From: Desulfocapsa sulfexigens DSM 10523
Lineage (GTDB): Bacteria > Desulfobacterota > Desulfobulbia > Desulfobulbales > Desulfocapsaceae
Assembly (NCBI RefSeq): GCF_000341395.1
Contig: NC_020304.1
Location: 30,001 to 62,000 of the forward strand
Direction of reading: 5' to 3'
DNA length: 32,000 nucleotides
Under the pieces are notes generated by a model. The model ran no database searches. It was not told the DNA's origin and saw only the letters and a list, made by a program, of their open reading frames with translations. Positions 19,414 through 32,000 of the stretch are shown here, piece by piece. Numbering within the stretch: position 1 is the first letter of the stretch; each line of letters begins with the position of its first letter. The position numbers were made by a program, and so were the translations under genes.

Positions 19414-19958
19414 TGCATTTTTTCCAGAAAAAAAAGACTCTCTTCCTCCTTATCCTTCTCTGCATGTTATGTAGTGCCTGCGCTAAACCACCCGTAAGCA
19501 GGTTAATGGAAACCACTGCCTATTGCGGCTGCTCAAAATGCTGTTCCTGGGAACGCGGATCCTGGGCCTACCTGAAGCTGGATTTCTGGAATCGGTACGT
19601 AAGTGCAGGAAAAGGAGCAGGAAGGGATTATACCGGACAGACAGCCAGCGGCTCCTATCCAAATGAGCCCGAAGAGGGCTTTTTCTCGATGGACACCATA
19701 CAGCGACCATGGATGATCCCGACCCGACTGATTTTCTTTCCCTGGTATTTTCTCCCGGAAGATGGAACCATAGCAGCCGATACCAGGTATTATCCTTTCG
19801 GGACACGAATGTATGTTCCAGGCTGGGGCTGGGGGGAAGTAGAAGATCGCGGCGGAGCTATTAAAGGACCGGACCGAATTGATCTCTACTTTGATTCCCA
19901 TTCGGACGCACTGCTGTGGGGACGACGCAAACTTTCAGTAATAATAGAGAAACCTTAA
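19395..19958 (+). CDS. 3D-domain (MltA/RlpA-like) secreted or lipoprotein
   Basis: The hydrophobic leader ends in LCSAC. The C-terminal region GTIAADTRYYPFGTRMYVPGWGWGEVEDRGGAIKGPDRIDLYFDS is typical of the 3D domain. An alternative start at 19413 overlaps the mutL stop as TGATG. Confidence 0.7.
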   Translation: MVSPLLMHFFQKKKTLFLLILLCMLCSACAKPPVSRLMETTAYCGCSKCCSWERGSWAYLKLDFWNRYVSAGKGAGRDYTGQTASGSYPNEPEEGFFSMDTIQRPWMIPTRLIFFPWYFLPEDGTIAADTRYYPFGTRMYVPGWGWGEVEDRGGAIKGPDRIDLYFDSHSDALLWGRRKLSVIIEKP

Positions 19959-19969
19959 AAAAACACACT

Positions 19970-21298
19970 ATGAAAAAACAACATATAAAAATTATAGGGG
20001 GCGGACTCGCTGGATGTGAAGCCGCATGGCAGGCGGCACAGCAGGGAATTGCCGTTCATCTCTACGAAATGAAGCCACAGAAATTCAGTCCGGCGCACAG
20101 CTCATCATCCTTGGCGGAACTCGTCTGCAGCAATTCTCTCCGCTCCAACTCCCCAACGTCCGCTGTCGGATTACTGAAAGAGGAGATGCGAATCATGGGC
20201 TCTCTCCTCATTCAGGTTGCCGATGAAACTGCTGTTCCTGCTGGCCAGGCTCTTGCCGTAAACAGGGAGGATTTTGCTACCAGAGTAACGGAGAAAATCA
20301 CTGCCCACCCTCTCGTCACCATCCATCACGAGGAGCAGACAGAACTCAATCCAGACTCTGACACTCCAATTATTTTAGCCACCGGCCCCCTAACCTCTGA
20401 AGCCATGACGGAATCATTGGTAAAACTCACAGGAAAAGAGCGTCTCGCCTTCTATGATGCCATTGCTCCCATTGTTTCCAAAGAATCACTCAACATGGAC
20501 ATTATTTACTCCAAATCCCGCTGGCAGGATGGCCCTGGAGATTACCTGAACTGTCCCTTTGACAAGGAAGAATACCTCGCTTTTATTGATGCACTGGGAA
20601 AGGGCAAGACGGTACCACTTAAGAGCTTCGAAGACGAGAAGTACTTCGAGGGTTGTCTGCCGATTGAAGTAATGCGGGCAAGGGGTGAGGAAACACTGCG
20701 TTTTGGGCCAATGAAGCCTGTGGGGTTGCGTAATCCCAACACTGGCCAGGACCCGTACGCGGCGGTTCAGTTACGCATGGAAAACAGGGAAGGAACTATA
20801 TACAACCTGGTCGGCTTCCAGACAAAGCTCACCTATCCTGAACAAAAGCGTATTTTCAGAATGATCCCGGGGATGGCAAATGCTGACTTTGTCAGACTTG
20901 GGTCAATTCACCGTAACACTTTTGTCTGTGCTCCGGAAGTCCTGGAGCCAGACCTGCAGTTAAAGAATGCTCCAAATATCTATCTTGCAGGACAGCTCTC
21001 AGGTGTTGAGGGCTACGTTGAGTCAATTGCAATGGGTATGCTTGCTGGACTCAATGCAGCCAGATCCATTTTGGAAAAAGTCGTTATTGCGCCACCACCC
21101 GAAACAGCCCTTGGGGCTCTTATAGGTCATCTCACCCGGTCAGATCCGAAGTGTTTTCAACCGTCAAATGTCAATTTTGGTCTTTTCCCTTCCTGGGAAA
21201 AAAAAGTTCCGAAAAAGTTGCGCGGAGAAAAACGCAATGAACAGTCAATGACAGCGTTGCACCTGTGGCGGGAGCAACTTGGACTGACACCAAGCTAA
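19970..21298 (+). CDS. trmFO: Methylenetetrahydrofolate--tRNA-(uracil-5-)-methyltransferase TrmFO
   Basis: IKIIGGGLAGCEAAWQAAQQGIAVHLYEMKP plus the GidA-like core. The start is set at the internal ATG at 19970, after the upstream stop, rather than at the track start 19916. Confidence 0.9.
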   Translation: MKKQHIKIIGGGLAGCEAAWQAAQQGIAVHLYEMKPQKFSPAHSSSSLAELVCSNSLRSNSPTSAVGLLKEEMRIMGSLLIQVADETAVPAGQALAVNREDFATRVTEKITAHPLVTIHHEEQTELNPDSDTPIILATGPLTSEAMTESLVKLTGKERLAFYDAIAPIVSKESLNMDIIYSKSRWQDGPGDYLNCPFDKEEYLAFIDALGKGKTVPLKSFEDEKYFEGCLPIEVMRARGEETLRFGPMKPVGLRNPNTGQDPYAAVQLRMENREGTIYNLVGFQTKLTYPEQKRIFRMIPGMANADFVRLGSIHRNTFVCAPEVLEPDLQLKNAPNIYLAGQLSGVEGYVESIAMGMLAGLNAARSILEKVVIAPPPETALGALIGHLTRSDPKCFQPSNVNFGLFPSWEKKVPKKLRGEKRNEQSMTALHLWREQLGLTPS

Positions 21299-21307
21299 TA
21301 GTACAAC

Positions 21308-22564
21308 TTACACATCCCCATTTTCTGTTTTTCCACGGAGTTTCCATATCCTTGCAAGTACCGGCGGATGGCTGTAATGGAAGAAGACCATCGCCGGATG
21401 GGGGGTAAGATTTGACAAATTGGCGACAGAGAGCTTTTTCAGCCCGCTAACCAGTGCTGCGCCACGGCTGGGAGAATCTGCAGCATAGCGATCTGCCTGA
21501 TACTCATGTTTTCGTGAAAGAACATTCACCAGAATTCCAAGAAGAAGATTCAGTGGAGAAAAAATAAAGGAAAAAATAATCAACGCACCATAAATGGAGA
21601 CATGCTCCATCTGAAAAGCTGCAAAGAGCTTTTCATTGCCAATAAAAAGGGAAAGGAGGAAAAAGAGGAGGCCGGTATGGCAAACAGAAATCACCATCAT
21701 TTTGAAGATATGTCGATGTTTGTAGTGTCCCATTTCATGGGCAAGAACGGCAACGACTTCATCTTCATCAAGTTTCTCAAGGAGGGTGTCGTAAAAGACG
21801 ATTTTCCTGAATTTTCCAAAACCAGTGAAAAATGCGTTGAGTTTAGTAGATCTTTTTGATCCATCCATGGTGTAGATTCCCTGGATGTTAAATGCAGCAC
21901 TTTTGGCAAACGCGAGTACCTTTTCCTTCAATGTTCCATCTTCGAGGGGAATAAATTTATTAAAAAGTGGCATAATCAGGACAGGCGCAAGAAATTGTAG
22001 AACAATACTGATCAGTGTCAGTCCTATCCAGCAGTACACCCAGGCAAGATCCCCAGCAGTCTCAAAGAACCAGAGGATTAGGTAAAGAACCGGCACTCCA
22101 AGAAGCACACTGAGAAAAAGTGCTTTTAGAATATCGGCACAGTATGTCTTTATGGTTGTTTTATTGAAACCAAATTGTTCTTCAATAACAAAGGTTGAAT
22201 AGAAACTGAAAGGAAGAGAAAGCAGGGAACTGAGCAAGAGGAGAAGAGCGATATAGACGACACCGCTGACAATTGATCCCAGTTGAAAACTACGAACAAA
22301 GAGATCAACCGAATTAAAACCTCCGACCAAAAGGAAACCAAGTACAAACAGGGTACTGACAGTAGATTCTATCAGGCCAAACTGGCTTGTCGCCCTGGTA
22401 TACTCCTGGGATTTACGATATTCCTCTCTATCAAATACATCCTGAAACTCCTTCGGCACCTCATTTAGCAAAGCCTTGATATTGAGGTATGACAAAAACA
22501 GTTCCAGAAGATAATTCCCGACAAGGATTACAAGTATAAAGAGCAACCAGCTATTCGTTTCCAT
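21308..22564 (-). CDS. Ste24-type M48 family zinc metalloprotease (polytopic membrane)
   Basis: HEMGHYKHRH (HExxH) is present with multiple TM helices on both sides. The ATG at 22564 (METNSWLLF...) is preferred, because the TTG at 22606 lies inside the T-run of the upstream terminator. Confidence 0.85.
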   Translation of the reverse strand: METNSWLLFILVILVGNYLLELFLSYLNIKALLNEVPKEFQDVFDREEYRKSQEYTRATSQFGLIESTVSTLFVLGFLLVGGFNSVDLFVRSFQLGSIVSGVVYIALLLLLSSLLSLPFSFYSTFVIEEQFGFNKTTIKTYCADILKALFLSVLLGVPVLYLILWFFETAGDLAWVYCWIGLTLISIVLQFLAPVLIMPLFNKFIPLEDGTLKEKVLAFAKSAAFNIQGIYTMDGSKRSTKLNAFFTGFGKFRKIVFYDTLLEKLDEDEVVAVLAHEMGHYKHRHIFKMMVISVCHTGLLFFLLSLFIGNEKLFAAFQMEHVSIYGALIIFSFIFSPLNLLLGILVNVLSRKHEYQADRYAADSPSRGAALVSGLKKLSVANLSNLTPHPAMVFFHYSHPPVLARIWKLRGKTENGDV

Positions 22565-22603
22565 AGATTCAGCAAATACTTTGATTGTTATTCCGACAAC
22601 AAA

Positions 22604-22639
22604 CAAAAAAAGGCCGTTACAGTAAACTCTGCAACGGCC
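22604..22639 (-). terminator. Rho-independent terminator after the heme-sensor/HAMP gene
   Basis: Read on the minus strand, GGCCGUUGCAG-AGUUUA-CUGUAACGGCC forms 11 bp including one G-U pair, followed by U7. Confidence 0.8.
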
Positions 22640-22662
22640 CTTCCCATCATGTACAGACGATT

Positions 22663-23565
22663 TTATTTCTTCTGTTCCTTACGATCTGGACAGGTACGTT
22701 TCAGCAACTTGTTGACACTGATCCGCATCCGGTCAATGGAATTAGCAAGTCCACCTATCTCATCGTTTGAATCGGTATGAATAGAATCACAAAGATTTTT
22801 ACCAATACTGATATCCTTGGCTGCATCTGACAGGTGGATAATAGGCGCCACAACCGATCTATCAAGAAAAACCCATATACAGATAATTGTTACCAGCAGA
22901 CAGCCAATACCGACAAAGAAGATCTTCATAGCAGACTGCTTGGCATCTGCAAGCGTCTTTGAAATGGAAATATAAATGATGGATGTTCCAACGGTAGAGT
23001 CCATCTTCCAGTTGTAGCCATTCTCAGTACCATAAATATCACGCTGATCAGCAGGGGCATCGGCAGGGTCACCATGACAGGTCAAACAAAACGCCTTATC
23101 GACCTTAATGGGCTTTGCTGTATAAAAATACTTTTTACCGTCCTTATCCATGACACCTTGCTGCTCGGTTGCTTGAGGATTGGAGGCAAAGTACTGAATA
23201 ACACCCTCCTCTTGCGCATTGGCTTTATTATCTGGCCAGAGAGGATCGAGAGTTGCCTGTTTGAAAATATATCCTTCCAGTGTTTCCTGAAAAATCTCAT
23301 ATTCCATACGATTGACAACAAACCTGGACATGAGCTCTGGTATAAAGGTGTCTCTATCGTCTATAAGATCTTTAATGAGAGGGTATTGGTCTTTACCAAA
23401 AAACGTGGAACTGGCTTCAATATAATTATAAATAATCTCGCCTTTGCTTTTAGCTTCAGCAATGGCACTCTGCCGACTGAGCATATAGCTTGTATACCCA
23501 ATGGCTATAGTCGCCAACAGACTCAATACTGTGATAATGATAATAAACTTTGACCGTATCCCCAT
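22663..23565 (-). CDS. Membrane sensor: periplasmic heme-c binding domain (DUF3365/Tll0287-like) + TM + HAMP, with no output domain
   Basis: After an N-terminal TM helix, the periplasmic domain carries a single CLTCHGDPADAP motif. A second TM helix and a HAMP-like segment follow (VVAPIIHLSDAAKDI...NDEIGGLANSIDRM), then a stop. GGAGG lies 9 nt before the ATG at 23565 and directly abuts the ATG at 23574. Confidence 0.65.
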   Translation of the reverse strand: MGIRSKFIIIITVLSLLATIAIGYTSYMLSRQSAIAEAKSKGEIIYNYIEASSTFFGKDQYPLIKDLIDDRDTFIPELMSRFVVNRMEYEIFQETLEGYIFKQATLDPLWPDNKANAQEEGVIQYFASNPQATEQQGVMDKDGKKYFYTAKPIKVDKAFCLTCHGDPADAPADQRDIYGTENGYNWKMDSTVGTSIIYISISKTLADAKQSAMKIFFVGIGCLLVTIICIWVFLDRSVVAPIIHLSDAAKDISIGKNLCDSIHTDSNDEIGGLANSIDRMRISVNKLLKRTCPDRKEQKK

Positions 23566-23863
23566 TTCTTGCATCCTCCATACCTTCGTTTTTCCCTAAC
23601 AAGTTTTTCATTACTACTTGCTGAATTTAGGGCAAGTATAGCACCTCTTCTTTTAAATGAAAGCAAGAAATCGAAAAACTTATTGTTTTTTCAGGACCTT
23701 CAAAGCAATAAACGAAATTCTTTAACTGCTCCATTCTCTCCCTCTACACGCCTTTCTCCTTGACAAACATGCCTAAGCTCTACTAAAAATAGGTTAGGAG
23801 AAAGGAAATTCTTTGATTAAGAATAGTTACCATATGAATATGAAGTTTCTTCGGGGAGAAACC

Positions 23864-25600
23864 ATGATAAAGCGTTACACCATGATCGGTCTTGCTGGCG
23901 CAGTGCTTTCAGCGCAGGTGTTCACAGGGACAGCATTTGCTGGACAAACAGCATTGTCACAGGAAGAACTTATAAATGAAATCAACATGTTGAAAAACAT
24001 TGTTCTGGATCTCAACGAACGTCTTGCCGGAGCAGAAGAGATGCTCCAGATGTCTCTTGAGATGAAAGAACAGCAGGATGCTCAAGTTGCGGATGTTGTA
24101 GAGGTTGTTGATGAACTTGACGAACGACTTGGTGACGCCGAAAAACATACCGCACTGGACAGAGTTACCATGGGTGTAGAACTTCAGACCCAGCTCAACT
24201 CCATTCATATGGACGTAGCAACCATGCCTGCAGCCAGTCAAATAATGATTGGTCAGATGGCTGTTGCAGGGTCACAGTTCTCCTCAGCTGAAATGGCCCA
24301 GATCCAGCAGATGATGAAACAGCAGGGGACTGAAAAACAATCTATTGATAATGATGCTCTTTTCACCAGTCGCATCCGTCTGGATCTTAAAGCAAAACCA
24401 GCCAACTCCCTTTCCTTTGTCGGACGTCTCTCAGCAGCCAAAGTTTTCGGCGATTCTACGGGAGTCAAATGGTACAATGGTGGCCCCAATGCAGTCACAA
24501 TGGATGGCAACATCCACAGTAATGGTAGTGACTCAGCCCTCCGTGTAGAGCGTGCCTTCTTTACCTATTTTGGCGATATGGGTGACGTTCCCTATCACTT
24601 CTCCCTAGGCAGGCGTCCCGCACTCGGTGGTGCCCCTGCTGAATTTTCAACATCCAGTATGGTTGGTGGCTCCCCCATGGCCCATGGTATCAACTGGCAG
24701 TTTGATGGTGCCTCCCTTGGTTTCGGCCTTGCCGACATAACAGGAATTCCTGGAGCGAACTTCAAACTATGCTGGGGGGTTGGCTTTGAGTCCGGAGTCG
24801 GTTCAGGAAACTCCTACTCCATGTCCTACAATTCTGACATCGATGACATGCAGTTTGGAGGATGGATTGCCAATCTGTACCAAGATGAAAACACTACAAT
24901 AACAAACATGTATGCCCATGCGGCAAACGTAACCGATGGATTCTCCGGTCTCGTTGTTACCCCCTTCACTTTGAATGGCCAGGATCTTAATGGTGACGGA
25001 CAATACGACCAATTTCAAATGAACGCCAATGATGGCGCCTATATCAGCCGTACAGAACCTACTGCTAATATCGGCTCCATTGACATCGTCACCCTGCTTG
25101 CACAATCAAAATTTGCCCAGGTTGATTTTTTTGTTGATTTGGCCATGAGCCATGCCAGACCTTCAGGACTTTCAGCAAACCCAACCATGCAACTCCTTGG
25201 TACTGACGCTCTACTTAACTCCAACGGAGAACAAAATGACCGTACTGGTTACTCTATCTGGGCCGGTGTCAAAACTGAGCTTCCATGGCAGGCAAGCATT
25301 GGATTTGAGTACAACTGGGGTTCAGAATACTGGATCGGCTTCACAGGCGGTGAAGACAATCCTGCCGGCTCCAAACTAGCTACCCGTGGATCCGTTTATG
25401 AGGTCTTCTATAACCATCCAATGGTAGAGAACAAGCTCACTCTTTCCATCGGAGCCCAGTACTATGACTACGACTACTCAGGAAGTGGTAATCCCATGGG
25501 CGCACCTGTTAAAATTGGAGAGCTGAGTGCACTTGATGCCTTTCTCCCTGTTACTGAAAGTATGTGGAACTATTACATGAACCTTGTGTATCGCTGGTAA
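23864..25600 (+). CDS. Putative outer-membrane beta-barrel protein with N-terminal coiled coil (DUF3373-like)
   Basis: GGGGAGA lies 5 nt upstream of the ATG at 23864. The signal peptide ends in TAFA|GQ. The coiled-coil stretch LSQEELINEINMLKNIVLDLNERL is followed by a long Gly/aromatic-rich region. The protein ends in ...NLVYRW, a terminal aromatic typical of OMPs. Confidence 0.6.
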   Translation: MIKRYTMIGLAGAVLSAQVFTGTAFAGQTALSQEELINEINMLKNIVLDLNERLAGAEEMLQMSLEMKEQQDAQVADVVEVVDELDERLGDAEKHTALDRVTMGVELQTQLNSIHMDVATMPAASQIMIGQMAVAGSQFSSAEMAQIQQMMKQQGTEKQSIDNDALFTSRIRLDLKAKPANSLSFVGRLSAAKVFGDSTGVKWYNGGPNAVTMDGNIHSNGSDSALRVERAFFTYFGDMGDVPYHFSLGRRPALGGAPAEFSTSSMVGGSPMAHGINWQFDGASLGFGLADITGIPGANFKLCWGVGFESGVGSGNSYSMSYNSDIDDMQFGGWIANLYQDENTTITNMYAHAANVTDGFSGLVVTPFTLNGQDLNGDGQYDQFQMNANDGAYISRTEPTANIGSIDIVTLLAQSKFAQVDFFVDLAMSHARPSGLSANPTMQLLGTDALLNSNGEQNDRTGYSIWAGVKTELPWQASIGFEYNWGSEYWIGFTGGEDNPAGSKLATRGSVYEVFYNHPMVENKLTLSIGAQYYDYDYSGSGNPMGAPVKIGELSALDAFLPVTESMWNYYMNLVYRW

Positions 25601-25651
25601 GCCACTATAAAAAACAAAACATGGCCATTGAAGTAACCGGAGCGGTATAAG

Positions 25652-25698
25652 AGCCGTAACGAAATTGATATAAATGTCTATGGTATTTCGTAACGGCT
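25652..25698 (+). other. Long-stem hairpin in the intergenic region
   Basis: AGCCGUAACGAAAU pairs with AUUUCGUAACGGCU (13 of 14 bp) around a 19-nt loop. Confidence 0.4.
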
Positions 25699-25739
25699 TC
25701 TAAGTTCTTCCTACTTGAGACTTTTTATCACCGCACAAA

Positions 25740-25777
25740 GGGGGCAGGCCGAAATTTTCGACCTGCCCCCTTTTTTT
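25740..25777 (+). terminator. Rho-independent terminator after the outer-membrane protein gene
   Basis: GGGGGCAGGCCGA pairs with UCGACCUGCCCCC (12 bp plus one mismatch), followed by T7. Confidence 0.85.
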
Positions 25778-25805
25778 GCTAATCACCTTAGAAAAACGTT
25801 CTCAA

Positions 25806-25811
25806 TATAAT
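25806..25811 (+). promoter_or_regulatory. Possible -10 box (TATAAT) for the cytochrome-rhodanese gene
   Basis: A perfect TATAAT lies 18 nt upstream of the ATG at 25830. I found no convincing -35 box. Confidence 0.3.
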
Positions 25812-25829
25812 TCATAGCTGGAGATATAC

Positions 25830-27965
25830 ATGCTCTCTGCCAAAAAAGCTGTTTTCTTTATCATTCCCTTGCTCGGCCTTTCCTTCGCACCTGCAAACAT
25901 CGTCAAGGGAGCAGAGCTCAGTCAATGCGCTCTTTGTCATACAGATCCTGAGTTAATAGACGAATTAACAGAAGAAGCCATCATGTATGGCGAGGGAGAT
26001 CCTGAAATTTCCTCCAGACAGATAGGTAATGGATATGGTGTAAAACAGGCACCATTTGATCTTTATGAAAAAATCCTAGTAAGCGAGTCTTTTCTCTCCT
26101 CCACTCATGGACAAATCCCCTGTCAACTCTGCCACCTCGGAAATCCTGACAGCAATGATCCGGCAACCGCCCACGCCGGAATGCTGAGAGATCCAAGTCT
26201 CAGCAGTACGGAAACATGTGGCCAGTGTCATGAAGACATCGTCTCAAAGGCTATCAACTCACTACACATGAACGCCACCCCACTGTACGCATCTCTTGAA
26301 AAAAGATGCAGCAGGGAACAAATGGATAGTATGAAGGAATCCACTCTTCAAAAGCAGTGCCTTAGTTGCCACCAGGGAAGCTGTGGATCATGTCATGTCA
26401 GTAGGCCTGCCGTTTCTGGAGGTGGCCTGCGACAGGGGCATATTTTCAAGAAAAAACCTGACTTTGTTGACCAGTGCCTTCCCTGCCATACCTCCCCTAC
26501 CGGTAATGATTTCATTGGCAAAAACGGGAAAGGCGATGTGCACTATCGCAAACACCAAATGACCTGCTCCGGTTGCCATTCCGGGCCTGAATTACATGCC
26601 TCCGCCGGGAAAGCAACAAACAGATATCATTTTGACCAGCGTCCCCAGTGTATCGACTGCCACACAGACATCTCCACTGGCCCGATTCCCGAGCATGTCA
26701 CTCATAAGAATGTTTCATGCTATGTATGCCATGCAGCACCTTATCAAAATTGCACATCCTGTCACATCGGCTTAGATGAGAACGGTGTTTCCTATTCACA
26801 ATCCTCTCCCCCAAAGCAGAATTTCAAGATTGGACTGAATCCAGACAAAAAAGGTGCGCGTTATGTTCTCATGCGCGAAGTAGGCATTCATCGAGACACC
26901 TTTAAAAATGATATTGGAAAGATGAAGCGATTCTCAGCCCTTCCCACTTACAAAATGGCAACACCCCACACAATCCAGCGGCGGACTTGGCAGACTGCAG
27001 ATTGTAATCACTGCCATGGAAACAAAGACCTTTTCCTGACGCAGGATACTGTGCCCTTTGACGCCATTGTAGCCAACAACCATGTCCTGCTAAAGTCCAC
27101 CGATATCCCAGAAAAAGTTCAGACAAAACGTTCGTTTATCCTTTCCCCAACCCATCCCGACCCAGCCATGCGGGTTTCCGCGGACTGGTTAAAAAAACAT
27201 TATAAGGATAAAAATCTTGTCATTCTAGATACCCGGACCAAAGCACAATACGAAAAAGGACACATTCCAGGAGCCTATCACCTCTGTTTCTGTCTCTTTA
27301 GAACAGGAGCCGAAGCTACTCCACCATACATGATGCTATCTCCTCAAGAGCTCGCCAAAACTTTAGGCGGTCCGCGTCTTGGACTTTCCCCAGATACCCG
27401 CGTGGTTCTCTACGATGATGGGCACAGTGGTCGTGGTATAGTTTTTCTGGCATTACAGATGATTGGCCATCAGAAAATCTCCTTTCTCGATGGCAATATC
27501 TCTTCATGGGAACAGAGTGGTTTCACCCTTGCTAAGGGAAAAGCACCTCAGGCAAAGGTGAACGATTATCCTGTTAAGGCTACAAACCCTCTTGTGGACA
27601 ACCATGGTATTATCGAACTCATGGGTTCCGGACAGGCTATAGTGGTTGATGTCCGCAATGCTGCCCAGCACAATGGTCATATGAAACGATCTGATATCAC
27701 GAAGAAAGGAGGTTCCATCCCGGAATCTCTGAGCTTTCCATTACAGACTGTCGTTGACGGTGAAGGAATGATTCATTCTGATGAGCGTTTATCCTGGTTG
27801 CTCTCCACAGCCGGCATAAACCAGTCTCGAGAAAAAAAGATCATTGTAACCTGCAATACGAATATGCTGGCTGCAGAGTTCTATATGATACTGACCTACC
27901 TCGGATACGACAACGTCAGAATCCACGATGGCTCATGGGCTGAATGGTCTGCAGAATTTCAATAA
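25830..27965 (+). CDS. Secreted undecaheme c-type cytochrome fused to a C-terminal tandem rhodanese (TST/SseA-like) module
   Basis: A Sec-type signal peptide is present. There are 11 CxxCH motifs between residues 33 and 396 (nt 25926-27017). Rhodanese domain 1 (LVILDTRTKAQYEKGHIPGAYHL) has no active-site Cys. Rhodanese domain 2 (IVVDVRNAAQHNGH...GGSIPESLSFP) has Cys675 in the loop CNTNMLA (nt 27852-27854). Confidence 0.85.
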   Translation: MLSAKKAVFFIIPLLGLSFAPANIVKGAELSQCALCHTDPELIDELTEEAIMYGEGDPEISSRQIGNGYGVKQAPFDLYEKILVSESFLSSTHGQIPCQLCHLGNPDSNDPATAHAGMLRDPSLSSTETCGQCHEDIVSKAINSLHMNATPLYASLEKRCSREQMDSMKESTLQKQCLSCHQGSCGSCHVSRPAVSGGGLRQGHIFKKKPDFVDQCLPCHTSPTGNDFIGKNGKGDVHYRKHQMTCSGCHSGPELHASAGKATNRYHFDQRPQCIDCHTDISTGPIPEHVTHKNVSCYVCHAAPYQNCTSCHIGLDENGVSYSQSSPPKQNFKIGLNPDKKGARYVLMREVGIHRDTFKNDIGKMKRFSALPTYKMATPHTIQRRTWQTADCNHCHGNKDLFLTQDTVPFDAIVANNHVLLKSTDIPEKVQTKRSFILSPTHPDPAMRVSADWLKKHYKDKNLVILDTRTKAQYEKGHIPGAYHLCFCLFRTGAEATPPYMMLSPQELAKTLGGPRLGLSPDTRVVLYDDGHSGRGIVFLALQMIGHQKISFLDGNISSWEQSGFTLAKGKAPQAKVNDYPVKATNPLVDNHGIIELMGSGQAIVVDVRNAAQHNGHMKRSDITKKGGSIPESLSFPLQTVVDGEGMIHSDERLSWLLSTAGINQSREKKIIVTCNTNMLAAEFYMILTYLGYDNVRIHDGSWAEWSAEFQ

Positions 27966-28083
27966 AATTGGAGTATTAGTTTTTCTACCCCACCTGAAAC
28001 AGGCCCCACAGGCGACAGGCAAGAACATCCAGCGGGTAGTCTGAACTCAAGGAAAACTTTCCAAATTCTCTCCTTCCCCAAAT

Positions 28084-28124
28084 AAAAAAGGCCCCCTCCC
28101 TGATCCAGGAAGGGGGCCTTTTTT
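28084..28124. terminator. Bidirectional rho-independent terminator between convergent cytochrome genes
   Basis: The order is A6, then stem GGCCCCCUCCC, then loop UGAUCCA, then stem GGAAGGGGGCC, then T6. The stem has 10 bp plus one mismatch. Confidence 0.85.
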
Positions 28125-28149
28125 ACAACAGAATACCAGCTAATTTTCT

Positions 28150-28842
28150 CTATTCACAAGTCTTGGGCTTTTCAGCATCAAGTGCGTACTGCCGAAAAAA
28201 CTGATGGAGATGCTCCAGCTGTGCGATGGAGTAATTATAGCTATCAAATTCTGGCATAGCCTTTTTTAACTTCTTAAAGTCATTGGTAAAGAAACGATCC
28301 CATGCCTTCTTGGTGCGATCAGCAGGAGACAGTATAGGGGCATTATTTTTCTTGTGACAGGCCAGGCATTTTCGGAAGATATAACGTCCCTTACCGGCAT
28401 TACCCGCATCCATATCGAACTTTTCCTGGTTCGTGGCACTGGTCTTACTGGCAGCTTTCTTCATCGCCGAGGAGGACTGTGTTGTTGTTCTCTGGGGCAT
28501 GGCAGCGACAGCAGCACTTCCTGAATTATTTTTCACTGCAGTATCAACAAGATAACGATGAATATTCTCCAGCTGTCTATCATTAATTCCAACAGCAGAG
28601 AAATCATGATCCATCTCCCTTAATTTCTTGTAATCGTTAGCAAAAAAGACTTCCCACGCCTCAGCACTCCGTTCCTGAGGCTGTAAAGATGTCAGTCCTT
28701 TTTCCTTATGACATGAGCGACAGGTCTGAATAGCATACTTCCCCCAAAGGGCATTCCCGCCCATAGAATCAAAGGCAGCCTGAGAATCCTGTACTGCAAC
28801 AAACAACAAGCCAGCAACCATGGCTGACGCAAACATTTTCAT
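28150..28842 (-). CDS. Secreted diheme c-type cytochrome made of two homologous modules joined by a Ser/Thr/Ala-rich linker
   Basis: A GAGGAG RBS is present and the signal peptide ends in SQA|AF. The heme motifs are CRSCH (residue 41) and CLACH (residue 159). The two modules align as FD..GNA..G.Y....C..CHK...L.P..R...AW..FF.ND.KKL...F...QLE..H. Confidence 0.8.
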   Translation of the reverse strand: MKMFASAMVAGLLFVAVQDSQAAFDSMGGNALWGKYAIQTCRSCHKEKGLTSLQPQERSAEAWEVFFANDYKKLREMDHDFSAVGINDRQLENIHRYLVDTAVKNNSGSAAVAAMPQRTTTQSSSAMKKAASKTSATNQEKFDMDAGNAGKGRYIFRKCLACHKKNNAPILSPADRTKKAWDRFFTNDFKKLKKAMPEFDSYNYSIAQLEHLHQFFRQYALDAEKPKTCE

Positions 28843-28963
28843 AAATCACTCCTCAGAAAAACGTTTTTTTATTCACAATGCCCTGCAAAAGGTCATTTTT
28901 TCTACAATAAGAAAGATACATGACTGCAGACAAATTACCAAGTAAATTTACTCCCTTTCTCTG

Positions 28964-30766
28964 CTATTCGTTATATTTTCCACCTGACTGCCTTTCAATA
29001 AAGCCCCAATAGGGGTAATCCACCTCATATTCTGCAATCAGCCCGGGACTATGCTCTCTGCTGGCAACAAGCCAGAGTTTATTTCTTCGTCTCTGCTCGG
29101 TCACAGAACTGAGTGGGTCCCAATCCGGATACAGCACCATGGCGTTATCAGCACTGTACTCTATATCACCTGAACCCTTAAAAACCCCAAGATGCGGCGT
29201 TTCCTTATAGCTCTTCCCATCCCCCCTGGAAAGTTCTGAAATAACAAGGAAAGAGACGTTCAATTCATCACGAATGGATTCCATTTGTCTCAGCCAGGCA
29301 TCAATACCTGTTCTTCGTTCTGAAAAATCCTTAAATGGTAACTTATGCAGGCTATCTATTACGACAATTGTATAATCGCTATGGGTCTCATGGTGGATAA
29401 AATCAATATGACGACGCATAATTTCCGGAGTTACCTGCCTGTCATTGATAACCCTGAAAAACTGCAGCATCTCTTGAAGGCGTTCGCAGGCCCCCCTATA
29501 TCGTGCCGCCTCGTCAGGGCTGAAAGATCCTTTCCGTATTGCCTCTGAAGAGAGTTGACTCAAGCGGCAAAGCGTACGATGATACAGTTTCTGACGACCA
29601 TTTTCGAAGTCATAATACAATACCGGAATGTTGCGCAATGCCATATCAGTGGCTATCTGGATCAAAAAAGTGGACTTCCCTGACTTTGGCGCTCCACCTA
29701 CGACATTAATACCGTGAACGCCATCAAGAGCGTCGTCGAAGAGTGGAAATCCTGTTCTAAGAGCCATGTAGGAGGATCCCCCCTCCATGGAAAGCTGTTC
29801 CTGGAAATGCGCATATTCCCGCGATGGAGTCGTGAAAGGAGAAAAGGCCCTGGCACCCTGAATCAACGCAGAAACAGCAGCACGAAACTGCTTGCCTTTA
29901 TCTTTTGCCAGCTGGCATAGAGTGTAATCTTTTGCCAATCCAACGGGCCACCTGAATGGTCGCACCTTATACCCTATACGAGCGGCGAGTTTTCGCATAC
30001 TTGCTTCAGCCTCGGCACTGTTACTGGTAACTAGAAAAAGGGTTTTGATAAAAGCAAACCTCTGCGGATCGATACTCTCAAGCACATGAGAGTCGGGCAC
30101 TGCTACAGCAGGGTATCCTAATTGCTTTAAGGCGAGAAGTGTCTCTTCCCCTTCACAGAGAAAAAGGCTGCCATTTTCACAACGATTTATGTCCTCCACA
30201 TTAAAAATCTGATACTCCTCACTAAAGAACTGTTCATTACCATGCCAGAAATAATCATCCTGACGGTCAGGAAAGACACAACGGGCAGCGTAGCAGTTTC
30301 CATCCTCCTGGAAATAGGGAAAAACAATATAGCGTCCATTGAAGCCAACATGCAATTGAGACAGAGCATCCTGCCCTATCCCTTTCTCACTAAAGCGATC
30401 CAGCAGTGGTTCTGTGAAATTCCCCTCATAGGATTGTATCTCAAGATTTCTATTTGCGGAGGGATAGTCAGCGGTGCTTAGAATTGGTTCCCGGTCAGGG
30501 TCATAACCAGGAACCTTAGCAAGATCGATACCTGACAGCTTAGCAAACCAGAGAGGAAAGCCACCGGGGACACAGTTGTTCAGACAACGAAAATAACCAT
30601 GAAAGAAACCGCTCTTTTTGAGGAAAACAACTAATCGATCATGGGGGTCAAATCCCCTTTCGTGACAAAAGGGACAATCGGCGGTCAGATGTTTTTTTTC
30701 GCCCCTGGCATTTACAAGATTACGCTGGTAGAATTCCGCAACACTATCATTCAGCTCAGTTACCAT
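28964..30766 (-). CDS. T7 gp4/Twinkle-like protein: Zn-finger + Toprim (degenerate) + DnaB-family RecA-like helicase domain
   Basis: The Zn finger is CPFCH...FRCLNNC. The Toprim region has LCEGEETLLALKQLGYPAVAV, but the DxD position reads TSNS. The helicase domain has Walker A GAPKSGKS, Walker B IVVIDS, SELSR and GSGDIEYSADNAMVLY (DnaB H4-like). Confidence 0.75.
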   Translation of the reverse strand: MVTELNDSVAEFYQRNLVNARGEKKHLTADCPFCHERGFDPHDRLVVFLKKSGFFHGYFRCLNNCVPGGFPLWFAKLSGIDLAKVPGYDPDREPILSTADYPSANRNLEIQSYEGNFTEPLLDRFSEKGIGQDALSQLHVGFNGRYIVFPYFQEDGNCYAARCVFPDRQDDYFWHGNEQFFSEEYQIFNVEDINRCENGSLFLCEGEETLLALKQLGYPAVAVPDSHVLESIDPQRFAFIKTLFLVTSNSAEAEASMRKLAARIGYKVRPFRWPVGLAKDYTLCQLAKDKGKQFRAAVSALIQGARAFSPFTTPSREYAHFQEQLSMEGGSSYMALRTGFPLFDDALDGVHGINVVGGAPKSGKSTFLIQIATDMALRNIPVLYYDFENGRQKLYHRTLCRLSQLSSEAIRKGSFSPDEAARYRGACERLQEMLQFFRVINDRQVTPEIMRRHIDFIHHETHSDYTIVVIDSLHKLPFKDFSERRTGIDAWLRQMESIRDELNVSFLVISELSRGDGKSYKETPHLGVFKGSGDIEYSADNAMVLYPDWDPLSSVTEQRRRNKLWLVASREHSPGLIAEYEVDYPYWGFIERQSGGKYNE

Positions 30767-31985
30767 TAATAAGATCCGTCATTTTCTTAGCTTCAAGTTC
30801 AGTGTCAAAACTGATGTGAACAGAACGGCCAGGCTCAGCAGAGTACAGGTTACGCACGGCAACAACGGTTCCGGAAAGACTCACCTGTTTTTCGTGTCCT
30901 TCACTATCACTAAAAAAAATCTTCACTTGACGCCCAAGAAGCGTTCGTGCCTGTTTCCGCTGGGTTATCCTCGACAGAAATGACAATCCTCCTGTGGAGA
31001 TATCACTCCCTTCTCCGCGGATAGTCGTATCTGTAAGTTCTCCACTGTCATCGAGCAGGATGATGTGGATTGAATCCGCCAGTGGAATTCTCTCTTCTTG
31101 ACGCCGTTCAGCACCCGTGCTAAGAAAAAAATCATTCACCTTATCAAATCTAAGACAGTAGTCCTGGATTTTCGCTTCAATGGCTGGATGCTCTTCCCGC
31201 CACTCATCTACAGACTTCATGGAAAGAGTGGACAACTCTACGCTCCCCATACTTGCCGCATTCAGAGTCCATACTGAATCATCAAAAAAGGAGGCCCCAC
31301 CAAAGACATTTCCAGGACCAACCGTCTTCACCAGCGTTTCATTCTCTTTTTCGTTAAAATAGAGTTTCACCCGTCCCTTATTCACAAAGAAAAGACGCCA
31401 CTGGGGATCCCCCTGTTTAACAATAATGGTCTCTGTAGGGTAGGTTTCATGTTCCAGAGAATGATACAAAACATTAAATTCCTCCGTCGTCAGCAGGTCA
31501 TACAAATCCGACCAGATAAGGATATGCCCCTGATCAATTGAATTACTTTTGGCATCTTCTATAATTTCTGCGGCCCTGATAATCTCAGCCAACGCCATAG
31601 CATCTATATCAATCAGACGGAGACGTAATGCTTCTGCCTCATTAAATTTTCTCAATTGGGCCGTTTTTTCAATCAGTGCACTAAGTATTTTTTTCGCAGA
31701 TTCCGCCTTGTCCTTACCCAGTAAGGCGTACACTTCACGTTCTTCCGGGTAATCTGTAATTGGCTCGTATTCTTTCTCAACAGGAGGCGGTACGCTCTTT
31801 ACCACAGATTCCACTGCGGCAGTTCTAGCCTCCTGGTGCTTCTCTACCCTGGCATCCAGGCCACTCCTTTGTGAGTTCTCCTTCTCCTCAATAAGGGCAA
31901 CTGCCAGTTTTGCAGCACGAACACTCTCCTGACCAAACTGGTTGCGACCACCATCAATGATACTCTGCAGCGGTACCAAGGCCAT
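30756..31985 (-). CDS. Cyclic-nucleotide-binding-like (CAP_ED) + PilZ domain protein
   Basis: The CAP_ED-like beta-roll reads IIVKQGDPQWRLFFVNKGRVKLYF...VGPGNVFGGASFF. The PilZ motifs are RRQEER and DISTGG. The stop overlaps the downstream start by 11 nt (ATGGTAACTGA). The frame stays open to the window end, so the true start may lie beyond 32000. Confidence 0.7.
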   Translation of the reverse strand: MALVPLQSIIDGGRNQFGQESVRAAKLAVALIEEKENSQRSGLDARVEKHQEARTAAVESVVKSVPPPVEKEYEPITDYPEEREVYALLGKDKAESAKKILSALIEKTAQLRKFNEAEALRLRLIDIDAMALAEIIRAAEIIEDAKSNSIDQGHILIWSDLYDLLTTEEFNVLYHSLEHETYPTETIIVKQGDPQWRLFFVNKGRVKLYFNEKENETLVKTVGPGNVFGGASFFDDSVWTLNAASMGSVELSTLSMKSVDEWREEHPAIEAKIQDYCLRFDKVNDFFLSTGAERRQEERIPLADSIHIILLDDSGELTDTTIRGEGSDISTGGLSFLSRITQRKQARTLLGRQVKIFFSDSEGHEKQVSLSGTVVAVRNLYSAEPGRSVHISFDTELEAKKMTDLINGN

Positions 31986-32000
31986 CGAGGAGTCAGTGGC

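What the first reader, a model, noticed from the sequence alone, without database searches (positions are those of the whole stretch)
28964..31985. cNMP-binding/PilZ protein translationally coupled to a gp4/Twinkle-like primase-helicase
The stop of the 409-aa CAP_ED + PilZ protein overlaps the start of the 600-aa Zn-finger/Toprim/DnaB-like protein by 11 nt (ATGGTAACTGA). They are therefore almost certainly co-expressed. Pairing a second-messenger receptor with a phage-type hexameric helicase scaffold is unexpected in a chromosomal setting, and I see no integrase, capsid or replication-origin features. The possibilities are: nucleotide-signal-gated DNA/RNA processing, such as a defence or stress module; a domesticated mobile-element replication protein; or a new regulatory ATPase. 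The cNMP phosphate-binding cassette lacks the usual Arg (WTLNAASM), so the ligand may not be cAMP or cGMP.
Basis: partly seen in the sequence, partly recalled or inferred. Interest (0 to 1): 0.7.

Follow-up and report, generated by a model that had tools for sequence, protein, structure and literature searches.

The report
Primase-dead phage-type helicase with c-di-GMP sensor
A sulfur bacterium and hundreds of its relatives carry, as a stable chromosomal gene, a phage-type primase-helicase whose primase site is dead. It usually sits directly behind a large protein predicted to sense the signal molecule c-di-GMP, a pairing I found no description of in the papers searched.

Summary
On the minus strand, a 600-aa gene (28964-30766) overlaps the stop of the upstream gene by 11 nt (ATGGTAACTGA).

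The "409-aa" upstream protein is an artefact of the window edge. The true protein is 1123 aa: a HEAT-like helical solenoid, a degenerate cNMP-binding domain and a PilZ domain with intact c-di-GMP motifs.

The 600-aa protein has the T7 gp4/Twinkle architecture. Its four zinc-finger cysteines and its helicase ATPase motifs are invariant. The TOPRIM DxD and third Asp are lost and the catalytic Glu is variable, so the primase is predicted dead.

It is not a prophage, plasmid or defence island. At least 428 species genomes encode a relative, and the best 80 are all Desulfobulbales. Synteny is fixed (maf, partner, helicase, trmFO, mutL) and the gene evolves at a housekeeping-like rate. The nearest relative with an intact primase lies in a mobile element.

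The partner is ancestral among the loci examined and was lost at least twice, with no relaxation of the helicase.

Best reading: a domesticated, probably self-loading SF4 helicase with an accessory c-di-GMP-responsive regulator. The regulatory link is inferred, not shown.

The parts
28964..30766 (-). 600-aa gp4/Twinkle-type protein: zinc finger, primase-like TOPRIM domain without its catalytic residues, and an SF4 (DnaB-type) helicase domain.
   Evidence: ORF. 100% identical to P0001, annotated in Desulfocapsa sulfexigens DSM 10523. AF2 model pLDDT 79.9. Foldseek top hits are T7 gp4 (5ikn, 1q57, 6n9x; E 1e-22 to 1e-19, ~500 columns) and human Twinkle 7t8b. PHROG 239 'DNA primase/helicase', 9.3e-29, covers residues 28-595.
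30482..30766 (-). Zinc-binding domain (aa 1-95), C4 type: CPFC...C..(x3)C.
   Evidence: C31, C34, C61 and C65 are invariant in 20 and in 80 family members. Outgroups with an active primase carry the DnaG-type CHC2 form CPFH instead.
29837..30481 (-). Primase-like RNA-polymerase/TOPRIM domain (aa 96-310) that has lost its metal-binding acidic residues.
   Evidence: hhalign against T7 gp4 pairs T7 E157 with E205 (E/V/Q in the family), D207/D209 with L245/T247, and D237 with D280 (D/N/E). In alignment A3, all outgroups and T7 have EGExD, FDNDExGR and D[IV]ND. The family instead has TSNSAEAE, MNHSPES, PKKNENA and similar. Pfam Toprim models reach only E 0.11-0.29.
29732..29836 (-). Interdomain linker (aa 311-345) with a conserved SPFxxPxxE...F motif.
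   Evidence: S309, P310, F311, P314, E317 and F321 are invariant. The position matches the gp4/DnaB linker that docks on the neighbouring subunit; that role is inferred from the fold match.
28964..29731 (-). SF4 helicase/ATPase domain (aa 346-600) with all catalytic motifs present.
   Evidence: DnaB_C 9.4e-27. PDB profile hits are to DnaB only. Invariant residues: Walker A GGAPKxGKS (K364), catalytic E388 (aligned with the Glu of the E. coli DnaB SLEM motif and with T7 E343), Walker B D471, R514, GSGDIEYSADN, and the Arg finger R570 (aligned with T7 R522).
30756..30766 (-). 11-nt overlap between the stop codon of the partner gene and the start codon of the helicase gene (ATGGTAACTGA).
   Evidence: The same overlap geometry occurs in 11 related loci.
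30756..32000 (-). C-terminal 414 codons (aa 710-1123) of a 1123-aa partner gene that continues beyond the window's right end.
   Evidence: The full gene is L001:6640-10011 on a contig 100% identical to window 18964-32000. AF2 model pLDDT 81: helical solenoid aa 1-754, disordered 754-783, helical 794-889, then two beta domains.
31458..31748 (-). Helical module (aa 794-890) that precedes the cNMP-like domain, with a conserved AAEIIE motif.
   Evidence: The module is conserved in the large partners and in the short paralogues.
31200..31448 (-). Degenerate cyclic-nucleotide-binding (CAP_ED) domain (aa 894-976).
   Evidence: Pfam 2.8e-13. Foldseek hits to CNB domains. In 49/49 homologues the PBC Glu is replaced by G/A/V/T and the PBC Arg by L/V/I/M, while W953 (47/49) and T954 (49/49) are conserved.
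30771..31109 (-). PilZ domain (aa 1007-1119) with canonical c-di-GMP-binding motifs.
   Evidence: Pfam 3.6e-06. RRxxxR (R1008, R1009, R1013) is present in 49/49 homologues. In D-h-S-x-x-G, D1042 is present in 48/49, S1044 in 47/49 and G1047 in 49/49. Motif definition from bioRxiv 10.1101/814665.

Best explanation
The 600-aa gene encodes a domesticated phage- or mobile-element-type primase-helicase (T7 gp4 / Twinkle architecture). It has become a vertically inherited chromosomal gene across at least the Desulfocapsaceae/Desulfobulbaceae genomes sampled, Desulfocapsa sulfexigens among them.

SHOWN by sequence and structure comparison:
- The zinc finger, the primase fold, the linker and every SF4 ATPase motif are conserved.
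- Most TOPRIM metal-binding acidic residues are gone. It cannot be a conventional primase.
- It should still form an ATP-driven ring.

INFERRED, by analogy with vertebrate Twinkle:
- The ring translocates on single-stranded DNA.
- The dead primase domain and the zinc finger now serve for DNA capture, self-loading or partner docking rather than catalysis.

The gene upstream (1123 aa, cut by the window edge) encodes a HEAT-like solenoid, a helical module, a degenerate cNMP-binding barrel and a PilZ barrel with intact motifs.

INFERRED mechanism:
- c-di-GMP binds at the RRxxxR linker between the two barrels and clamps them together, as in YcgR-type receptors.
- This changes how the solenoid engages the helicase, so that loading or activity follows the cell's c-di-GMP level.

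The partner is an accessory regulator, not an obligatory subunit. Two clades have lost it and their helicases show no sign of relaxed constraint.

The cellular process served (replication restart, recombination or another kind of DNA maintenance) is not determined.
For: Architecture:
- Foldseek hits to T7 gp4 over ~500 columns and to Twinkle.
- Foldseek hits to full-length phage primase/helicase fusions in BFVD.
- PHROG 239 covers aa 28-595.

Dead primase, live ATPase:
-.

Chromosomal and vertically inherited:
- 428 species genomes hold a relative, and the best 80 are all Desulfobulbales.
- Synteny DUF362 / maf / partner / helicase / trmFO / 3D / mutL is conserved.
- Helicase distances track TrmFO distances (r = 0.91). 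Mean distance is 0.50 against 0.38 for TrmFO and 0.71 for Maf.
- GC is flat and there are no tRNAs.
- No phage or plasmid relative exceeds 28% identity.

Mobile-element origin:
- The nearest relatives with intact CHC2 zinc finger and DxD share the family's private helicase motifs (DFENG, IDSLQKLP, FKESGDIEY).
- One of these relatives lies among recombinases, an MCM-like ATPase and PolA.

Link to the partner:
- The partner is immediately upstream on the same strand in 63 of 64 helicase-anchored loci that carry it (L081 has a HerA-like gene between them), with overlaps or short gaps.
- This still holds at 46% helicase identity.
- It holds in 2 of 2 partner-anchored look-ups.
- Where a second, short cNMP-PilZ gene exists, it sits next to the helicase.
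- Partial correlation of helicase with partner given TrmFO is 0.45, against 0.18 for helicase with Maf. This is weak evidence.

c-di-GMP:
- PilZ motifs are invariant.

Precedent for a non-catalytic primase domain that captures DNA and for self-loading:
- PMC9723800.
Against: - No physical interaction, ligand binding, ATPase activity or unwinding has been tested. The regulatory link rests on gene order only.
- The partner has been lost at least twice, and the helicase stays equally conserved in every domain. The helicase's core function therefore does not need it.
- Short cNMP-PilZ paralogues also occur away from any helicase, for example after secA and next to a PatA-type response regulator. 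The module itself is not helicase-specific.
- A distant family member (39% identity) has no partner at all.
- The solenoid matches nothing more specific than karyopherin-like repeats.
- I could not check whether the genome also has canonical DnaB and DnaG.
- The sensor position is Glu (E511), where DnaB has Gln and gp4 has His. The effect of this is unknown.
Confidence: 0.5

Rival explanations
1. The adjacency is operonic but functionally unrelated. The HEAT-cNMP-PilZ protein is a c-di-GMP effector for another process (envelope, motility, secretion) that happens to be inserted between maf and the helicase gene, and the helicase works independently of c-di-GMP.
For: The partner was lost twice with no change in helicase conservation. 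Short paralogues of the cNMP-PilZ module lie near secA, a secretin and a PatA-type regulator. A sugar-transferase gene sits in the same interval in some loci.
Against: The large partner was found only next to the helicase: 64 helicase-anchored loci, 2 of 2 partner-anchored look-ups, and 17 or more pairs with identical longest-contig lengths. Start/stop overlap is maintained in 15 loci. Duplicated modules are placed beside the helicase. The arrangement persists down to 46% helicase identity.
Confidence: 0.2
2. The 600-aa protein is not a DNA helicase. It is a RecA/KaiC-like signalling or assembly ATPase that reuses the SF4 fold, and the partner is its signal input.
For: Some databases label homologues as KaiC/GvpD/RAD55 or FlaH ATPases. 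The sensor residue is Glu, not Gln or His. The primase site is dead.
Against: Full-length fold and profile matches are to primase-helicases, not to KaiC. The DnaB-type loop region and the GSGDIEYSAD motif align with DnaB's DNA-contacting region. The zinc finger and the primase fold are kept under strong constraint.
Confidence: 0.1
3. The pair is an anti-phage or anti-plasmid defence module, gated by a nucleotide second messenger.
For: Helicase-like ATPases and cyclic-nucleotide sensors are common in defence systems. PADLOC gives weak partial hits: RTasDnaG-like 5.3e-06 for aa 136-230, and mad8 4.2e-04.
Against: No defence-family model matches either whole protein. There is no nuclease or other effector, and the context is not a defence island. 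Synteny with housekeeping genes is fixed, and both evolutionary rate and inheritance look housekeeping-like. Defence genes are typically patchy and horizontally mobile.
Confidence: 0.05
4. The protein is the (or a) replicative helicase of these bacteria and has displaced or duplicated DnaB, much as Twinkle serves mitochondria.
For: Core-gene-like conservation and rate. All helicase motifs are intact. Some records annotate it 'replicative DNA helicase'.
Against: It scores 84.7 bits against the 385-bit equivalog cut-off for DnaB and has no DnaB N-terminal domain. DnaB is universal in bacteria (established knowledge; not checked in this genome). The family is confined to one order plus a few relatives.
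Confidence: 0.04
5. It is the replication module of a resident prophage, plasmid or integrative element.
For: The architecture is typical of phage and plasmid replicases. The closest relative with an intact primase is in a mobile element.
Against: No integrase, structural, partition or origin features lie within 32 + 8.7 kb. There are no tRNAs or flanking compositional shifts. The locus is syntenic in dozens of genomes. The primase is dead. The IMG/VR scan found no close relative: the single hit was 29% identical over the helicase domain only.
Confidence: 0.02

Closest known systems
Bacteriophage T7 gp4 primase-helicase (and phage or plasmid primase-helicase fusions generally)
   Same: Same domain order: zinc-binding domain, TOPRIM RNA-polymerase domain, linker, SF4 helicase. 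It is the best structural match over ~500 residues and the best profile match over aa 28-595. Walker A Lys, catalytic Glu, Walker B Asp and the Arg finger all align.
   Different: The counterparts of T7 D161, D207, D209 and D237 are lost, and the counterpart of E157 is variable. The zinc finger is C4 (CPFC), whereas the closest intact relatives have the DnaG-type CHC2 form. The gene is chromosomal, syntenic and vertically inherited, not viral. Identity is only ~15%.
Vertebrate mitochondrial Twinkle helicase
   Same: A gp4-type helicase adopted by a cellular lineage. [quoted passage not shown] Structural match to 7t8b, 7t8c and 8e2l.
   Different: An independent, bacterial case. The zinc-finger cysteines are retained here. 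There is no organelle context. The gene is wired to a PilZ protein. Function and self-loading are untested.
Bacterial replicative helicase DnaB
   Same: The C-terminal RecA-like helicase domain and its motifs match.
   Different: There is no DnaB N-terminal domain. The score is 84.7 bits against the 385-bit TIGR00665 cut-off. A zinc finger and a primase-like domain take the place of the DnaB N-terminal domain.
YcgR-type two-barrel PilZ receptors, and PilZ adaptors of hexameric ATPases (the PilZ-FimX-PilB system)
   Same: A canonical PilZ barrel is preceded by a second beta-barrel, with the RxxxR motif in the linker. There is precedent for PilZ proteins acting on ring ATPases through protein contacts (bioRxiv 10.1101/814665).
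   Different: The N-terminal barrel is a degenerate cNMP-binding domain, not PilZN. It is attached to a ~750-aa HEAT-like solenoid. The presumed target is a DNA helicase, for which I found no precedent in the papers searched.
CRP/CAP-type cyclic-nucleotide-binding domains
   Same: Same fold and a Pfam match.
   Different: The PBC Glu and Arg are absent throughout the family, and an invariant SVWT motif appears instead. A small neighbouring protein keeps the canonical GEMAV...PRCAS cassette, which shows the contrast.

Membership tests
gp4/Twinkle-type primase-helicase | N-terminal zinc-binding domain with four metal ligands | tested here: met
   C31, C34, C61 and C65 are invariant in 80 sequences.
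gp4/Twinkle-type primase-helicase | TOPRIM RNA-polymerase-domain fold between the zinc finger and the helicase | tested here: met
   Foldseek aligns ~500 columns with 1q57 and 5ikn. PHROG 239 covers aa 28-595 and PHROG 47 'DNA primase' covers aa 25-273.
gp4/Twinkle-type primase-helicase | TOPRIM catalytic acidic residues (T7 E157, D207, D209, D237; motifs EGExD, DxD) | tested here: not met
   The DxD motif is replaced by L-V-T / TSNS and similar. The counterpart of D237 varies (D/N/E/T/S), and E205 varies (E/V/Q). All outgroups keep these residues.
gp4/Twinkle-type primase-helicase | SF4 helicase motifs: Walker A, catalytic Glu, Walker B, Arg finger | tested here: met
   K364, E388, D471 and R570 are invariant.
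gp4/Twinkle-type primase-helicase | Hexameric ring, 5'-3' unwinding and primer synthesis | not testable with these tools
   Requires biochemistry.
Replicative helicase DnaB (TIGR00665) | Score above the equivalog cut-off | tested here: not met
   84.7 bits against a cut-off of 385.25.
Replicative helicase DnaB (TIGR00665) | DnaB N-terminal helical domain | tested here: not met
   Pfam finds only DnaB_C and AAA_25. The N-terminus is a zinc finger plus a primase fold.
PilZ c-di-GMP receptor | RxxxR motif | tested here: met
   R1008, R1009 and R1013 are present in 49/49 homologues.
PilZ c-di-GMP receptor | [D/N]hSxxG motif | tested here: met
   D1042 in 48/49, I/V1043 throughout, S1044 in 47/49, G1047 in 49/49.
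PilZ c-di-GMP receptor | Binding of c-di-GMP | not testable with these tools
   Requires a binding assay.
cAMP/cGMP-binding CAP_ED domain | Domain fold and profile match | tested here: met
   Pfam 2.8e-13. CNB structures are hit by Foldseek.
cAMP/cGMP-binding CAP_ED domain | Phosphate-binding cassette Glu and Arg (FGE...R[ST]A) | tested here: not met
   The Glu position is G/A/V/T and the Arg position is L/V/I/M in 49/49 homologues.
Known anti-phage defence systems (PADLOC-DB) | Match to a defence-protein model, plus an effector and a defence-island context | tested here: not met
   Only two weak partial hits for the helicase and none for the partner. The neighbourhood is syntenic and made of housekeeping genes.
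Prophage or plasmid replication module | Neighbouring integrase, structural, partition or origin genes, and close relatives on phages or plasmids | tested here: not met
   No such genes in the window or its 8.7-kb extension. No phage or plasmid relative exceeds 28% identity.

The most novel reading that the evidence does not exclude
Desulfobulbales run a second, Twinkle-like, self-loading hexameric DNA helicase. Its loading or activity is gated by c-di-GMP through a dedicated HEAT-CNB-PilZ adaptor, with the degenerate cNMP barrel and the PilZ barrel clamping the ligand between them. To my knowledge this would be the first direct wiring of c-di-GMP signalling to a replicative-type helicase. It would also be a bacterial parallel to the domestication of a phage primase-helicase by mitochondria.
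Probability: 0.3. Interest if true: 0.8.

Novelty: new variant of a known kind. Interest (0 to 1): 0.6.

Why it matters
Three points would matter if the reading holds.

1. It would be a clear bacterial case of a phage-type primase-helicase being domesticated into a vertically inherited chromosomal gene with a dead primase. This would be a second, independent instance of what happened with vertebrate mitochondrial Twinkle.

2. The conserved operon with a motif-intact PilZ protein suggests that c-di-GMP, best known for motility and biofilm control, may act directly on a DNA helicase. That would link lifestyle signalling to DNA maintenance.

3. The invariant SVWT motif in a cNMP-like barrel that has lost its cNMP-binding residues predicts a new way of building a two-barrel c-di-GMP receptor.

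In addition, database records that label this family 'replicative DNA helicase' are probably wrong and could be corrected.

Tried and rejected
The helicase look-up gave the extending contig instead.
- NCBIfam gave only sub-threshold DnaB hits.
- PADLOC gave nothing usable.
- Pfam Toprim models reached only E 0.1-0.3. Profile, structure and alignment methods were needed to place the domain.
- A sequence search of the PDB with the family profile hit only the DnaB C-terminal domain.
- Rfam found no riboswitch or other RNA family around the operon.
- The promoter and terminator scan was uninformative.
- Fold search of the partner returned only CNB domains and generic solenoids.
- Literature searches for PilZ with DnaB or helicase, for chromosomal Twinkle-like bacterial genes and for HEAT-cNMP-PilZ proteins found no description of this family.
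- Cluster look-ups gave almost no organism names for distant members or for canonical DnaB proteins.
- I could not find a canonical DnaB in the Desulfobulbales DNA I held. I had no way to scan the whole D. sulfexigens genome, so co-existence with DnaB and DnaG remains untested.
- Rejected readings: prophage or plasmid module, defence island, and true DnaB orthologue. Reasons are given under the rival explanations and in the membership table.


Full report
**1. Observation**

The window matches Desulfocapsa sulfexigens DSM 10523: the 600-aa product is 100% identical to a protein annotated in that genome. Both genes lie on the minus strand.

ORF 28964-30766 encodes 600 aa. An ORF ending at 30756 overlaps its start by 11 nt, reading ATGGTAACTGA.

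A contig 100% identical to window 18964-32000 extends the sequence by 8.7 kb. It shows a 1123-aa gene, L001:6640-10011.

Pfam confirms cNMP_binding and PilZ at the C-terminus and adds HEAT repeats. An AF2 model (pLDDT 81) shows:
- an all-helical solenoid over aa 1-754;
- a disordered spacer;
- a helical module at aa 794-889;
- two beta domains.

**2. The 600-aa protein**

Pfam sees only DnaB_C. NCBIfam's DnaB equivalog scores 84.7 bits against a cut-off of 385. There is no DnaB N-terminal domain.

An AF2 model (pLDDT 79.9) gives these structural matches:
- T7 gp4 over about 500 columns (E 1e-22 to 1e-19);
- human Twinkle;
- only then DnaB.

Against predicted viral structures, the best hits are full-length phage primase/helicase fusions. 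PHROG 239 'DNA primase/helicase' matches residues 28-595 at 9.3e-29.

**3. Which parts are functional**

In alignments of 20 and 80 family members the following are invariant:
- the four zinc-finger cysteines (C31, C34, C61, C65);
- the linker motif (S309, P310, F311, P314, E317, F321);
- Walker A (GGAPKxGKS);
- the catalytic E388 (aligned with the Glu of the E. coli DnaB SLEM motif and with T7 E343);
- Walker B D471;
- R514 and the GSGDIEYSADN motif;
- the Arg finger R570 (aligned with T7 R522).

The TOPRIM metal ligands are not conserved.
- A profile alignment to T7 gp4 pairs E157 with E205, which is E, V or Q in the family.
- It pairs D207/D209 with L245/T247, and D237 with D280, which is D, N or E.
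- In alignment A3, the next-closest relatives (P0210, P0211, P0217, P0336, P0341) and T7 itself all carry EGExD, FDNDExGR and D[IV]ND, and the three closest (P0210, P0211, P0217) a DnaG-type CHC2 zinc finger.
- The family proper shows TSNSAEAE, MNHSPES, PKKNENA, TENNVEG or FRNDEEG, and a C4 finger.

The primase is therefore predicted to be catalytically dead while the ATPase ring is intact.

**4. Chromosomal, vertical, and derived from a mobile element**

Distribution:
- A scan of one genome per species found 428 genomes with a relative. The best 80 are all Desulfobulbales: Desulfocapsa, Desulfofustis, Desulfoprunum, Desulfobulbus and Desulfobulbaceae/Desulfocapsaceae MAGs.
- An exhaustive profile search of 1.84 billion representatives found only four full-length clusters at 50% identity. 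Scores then drop sharply towards primase-helicases with intact active sites and towards DnaB.

Synteny:
- Gene order is conserved: DUF362, a small cNMP-binding gene on the opposite strand, maf, partner, helicase, then trmFO, a 3D-domain gene and mutL on the opposite strand.
- In D. sulfexigens and some relatives, a cytochrome c / multihaem-rhodanese / DUF3373 block is inserted between the helicase and trmFO.

Rate and composition:
- Helicase distances track TrmFO distances (r = 0.91).
- Mean distance is 0.50 for the helicase, 0.38 for TrmFO, 0.71 for Maf and 1.21 for the partner.
- GC content is flat and there are no tRNAs.

Mobile-element databases:
- The viral-contig scan, the phage database and the plasmid database hold nothing above 28% identity.
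- P0211, one of the closest relatives with an intact primase, lies among two serine recombinases, an MCM-like ATPase, PolA and PDDEXK nucleases.
- That outgroup shares the family's private helicase motifs (DFENG, IDSLQKLP, RRxxIDxWLR, FKESGDIEY).

This is the pattern expected for domestication of a mobile-element replicase.

**5. The partner and its link to the helicase**

- Of 81 helicase-anchored loci, 64 carry the partner upstream on the same strand, immediately so in 63; L081 has an intervening HerA-like gene.
- The 11-nt overlap recurs in 11 loci. Overlaps of 1-8 nt occur in 4 more. All but one of the rest have gaps of 8-365 nt.
- The arrangement persists at 46% helicase identity.
- Two partner-anchored look-ups both found the helicase directly downstream.
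- In several lineages a second, shorter gene (339-620 aa) carrying the same helical / cNMP-like / PilZ module sits between the large partner and the helicase.
- The partial correlation of helicase and partner distances, given TrmFO, is 0.45. It is 0.18 for helicase with Maf and -0.11 for partner with Maf. This is suggestive only.

Evidence against an obligatory pairing:
- Fourteen loci lack the partner. They form two clades nested among partner-bearing clades, so the partner was lost at least twice.
- Helicase conservation is not relaxed in any domain in those clades.
- A 39%-identical family member has no partner.
- Short paralogues of the module also occur far from any helicase.

**6. Ligand prediction**

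In 49 full-length partners, the PilZ motifs are essentially invariant:
- RRxxxR (R1008, R1009, R1013) in 49/49;
- D1042 in 48/49, S1044 in 47/49, G1047 in 49/49, with I/V at the hydrophobic position.

This matches the definition in bioRxiv 10.1101/814665.

The cNMP-like domain has G/A/V/T where the cassette Glu should be and L/V/I/M where the Arg should be. W953 and T954 are conserved, and the same SVWT signature appears in the short paralogues. A small neighbouring cNMP-binding protein keeps the canonical GEMAV...PRCAS cassette.

c-di-GMP, not cAMP or cGMP, is therefore the likely signal.

I infer that the degenerate barrel plays the role of the N-terminal barrel of YcgR-type receptors, with the ligand clamped at the RRxxxR linker.

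**7. Mechanism: shown versus inferred**

Shown:
- the architecture;
- the dead primase site;
- intact ATPase motifs;
- chromosomal and vertical inheritance;
- the conserved operon-like pairing;
- intact PilZ motifs;
- a degenerate cNMP cassette;
- dispensability of the partner.

Inferred:
- ring formation and ssDNA translocation;
- c-di-GMP binding;
- direct control of the helicase by the partner.

Unknown:
- the cellular process served;
- whether canonical DnaB and DnaG co-exist in this genome. This is very likely from general knowledge, but I could not test it.

**8. Comparison and novelty**

The closest known systems are T7 gp4 (same architecture, but an active primase and viral) and vertebrate Twinkle (same domestication with a dead primase, but eukaryotic and without the zinc ligands).

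The protein fails the DnaB membership tests. It fails the catalytic criterion of a primase-helicase while meeting the structural ones.

No paper in the searched library describes this family or links a PilZ protein to an SF4 helicase.

I rate it a new variant of a known kind, with interest 0.6. The anatomy and distribution are solid and unexpected. The regulatory mechanism rests on gene order alone.

Noticed in passing
window 25830-27965 (+): A 711-aa secreted protein with 11 CxxCH haem motifs fused to two rhodanese domains (Pfam Rhodanese 1e-32). This is an unusual multihaem cytochrome / sulfurtransferase fusion in a sulfur-disproportionating bacterium. It is conserved in 11 of the 81 loci.
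   Followed up: partly
window 28150-28842 (-): A dihaem cytochrome c with a signal peptide lies 121 nt downstream of the helicase on the same strand. It is present downstream in 28 of 81 loci. Together with the multihaem-rhodanese gene and a DUF3373 gene (23813-25600), it looks like a lineage-specific insertion between the helicase and trmFO.
   Followed up: partly
L001:5085-5534 (-), about 6.9 kb beyond the window's right end: A 149-aa stand-alone cNMP-binding protein with a canonical cassette (GEMAV...PRCAS), divergent from maf. It is conserved in at least 26 loci, including loci that lack the large partner.
   Followed up: partly
L001:6326-6420 (just downstream of the maf stop, outside the window): A strongly conserved block (TTTCTTGACTTTT ... 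GTGTAGCTAAAT) in seven Desulfocapsa-group genomes. It looks like a promoter for the partner-helicase pair and is followed by a variable leader of roughly 200-250 nt. Rfam finds no known RNA there.
   Followed up: partly
L026:8988-10007, L032:8228-9958, L089:6305-7993, L094:6001-7692: Second, shorter genes (339-620 aa) with the same helical / degenerate-CNB / PilZ module lie between the large partner and the helicase in some lineages. Close paralogues also sit elsewhere, after secA (L096) and next to a PatA-type response regulator near a secretin (L092).
   Followed up: yes
L084:2986-21695: A mobile element carrying two serine recombinases, an MCM-like ATPase, a family-A DNA polymerase, PDDEXK nucleases and an intact Zn_ribbon_DnaG / Toprim / DnaB_C primase-helicase (P0211). 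That primase-helicase is one of the closest relatives of the family with an intact primase.
   Followed up: partly
L086:11810-12277: In a distant family member's locus (39% identity, no partner), a 155-aa gene 49 nt downstream matches only the C-terminal part of the adenylate/guanylate cyclase catalytic domain (1.4e-05). It could be a truncated cyclase. Its significance is unclear.
   Followed up: partly
L028:12621-13313: A second, partial copy of the helicase C-terminus (aa 363-593, 64% identical to the query) lies about 850 nt downstream of the full gene. It is either a tandem partial duplication or an assembly artefact.
   Followed up: no
L081:6107-8521 (-): A HerA/DUF87-like ATPase gene is inserted on the opposite strand between a shortened partner (757 aa) and the helicase.
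   Followed up: no
L046 versus L045: A MAG labelled Leptospira biflexa carries a locus essentially identical to one labelled Desulfocapsa sulfexigens from the same sulfidic-cave study. The contig is probably mis-binned.
   Followed up: no
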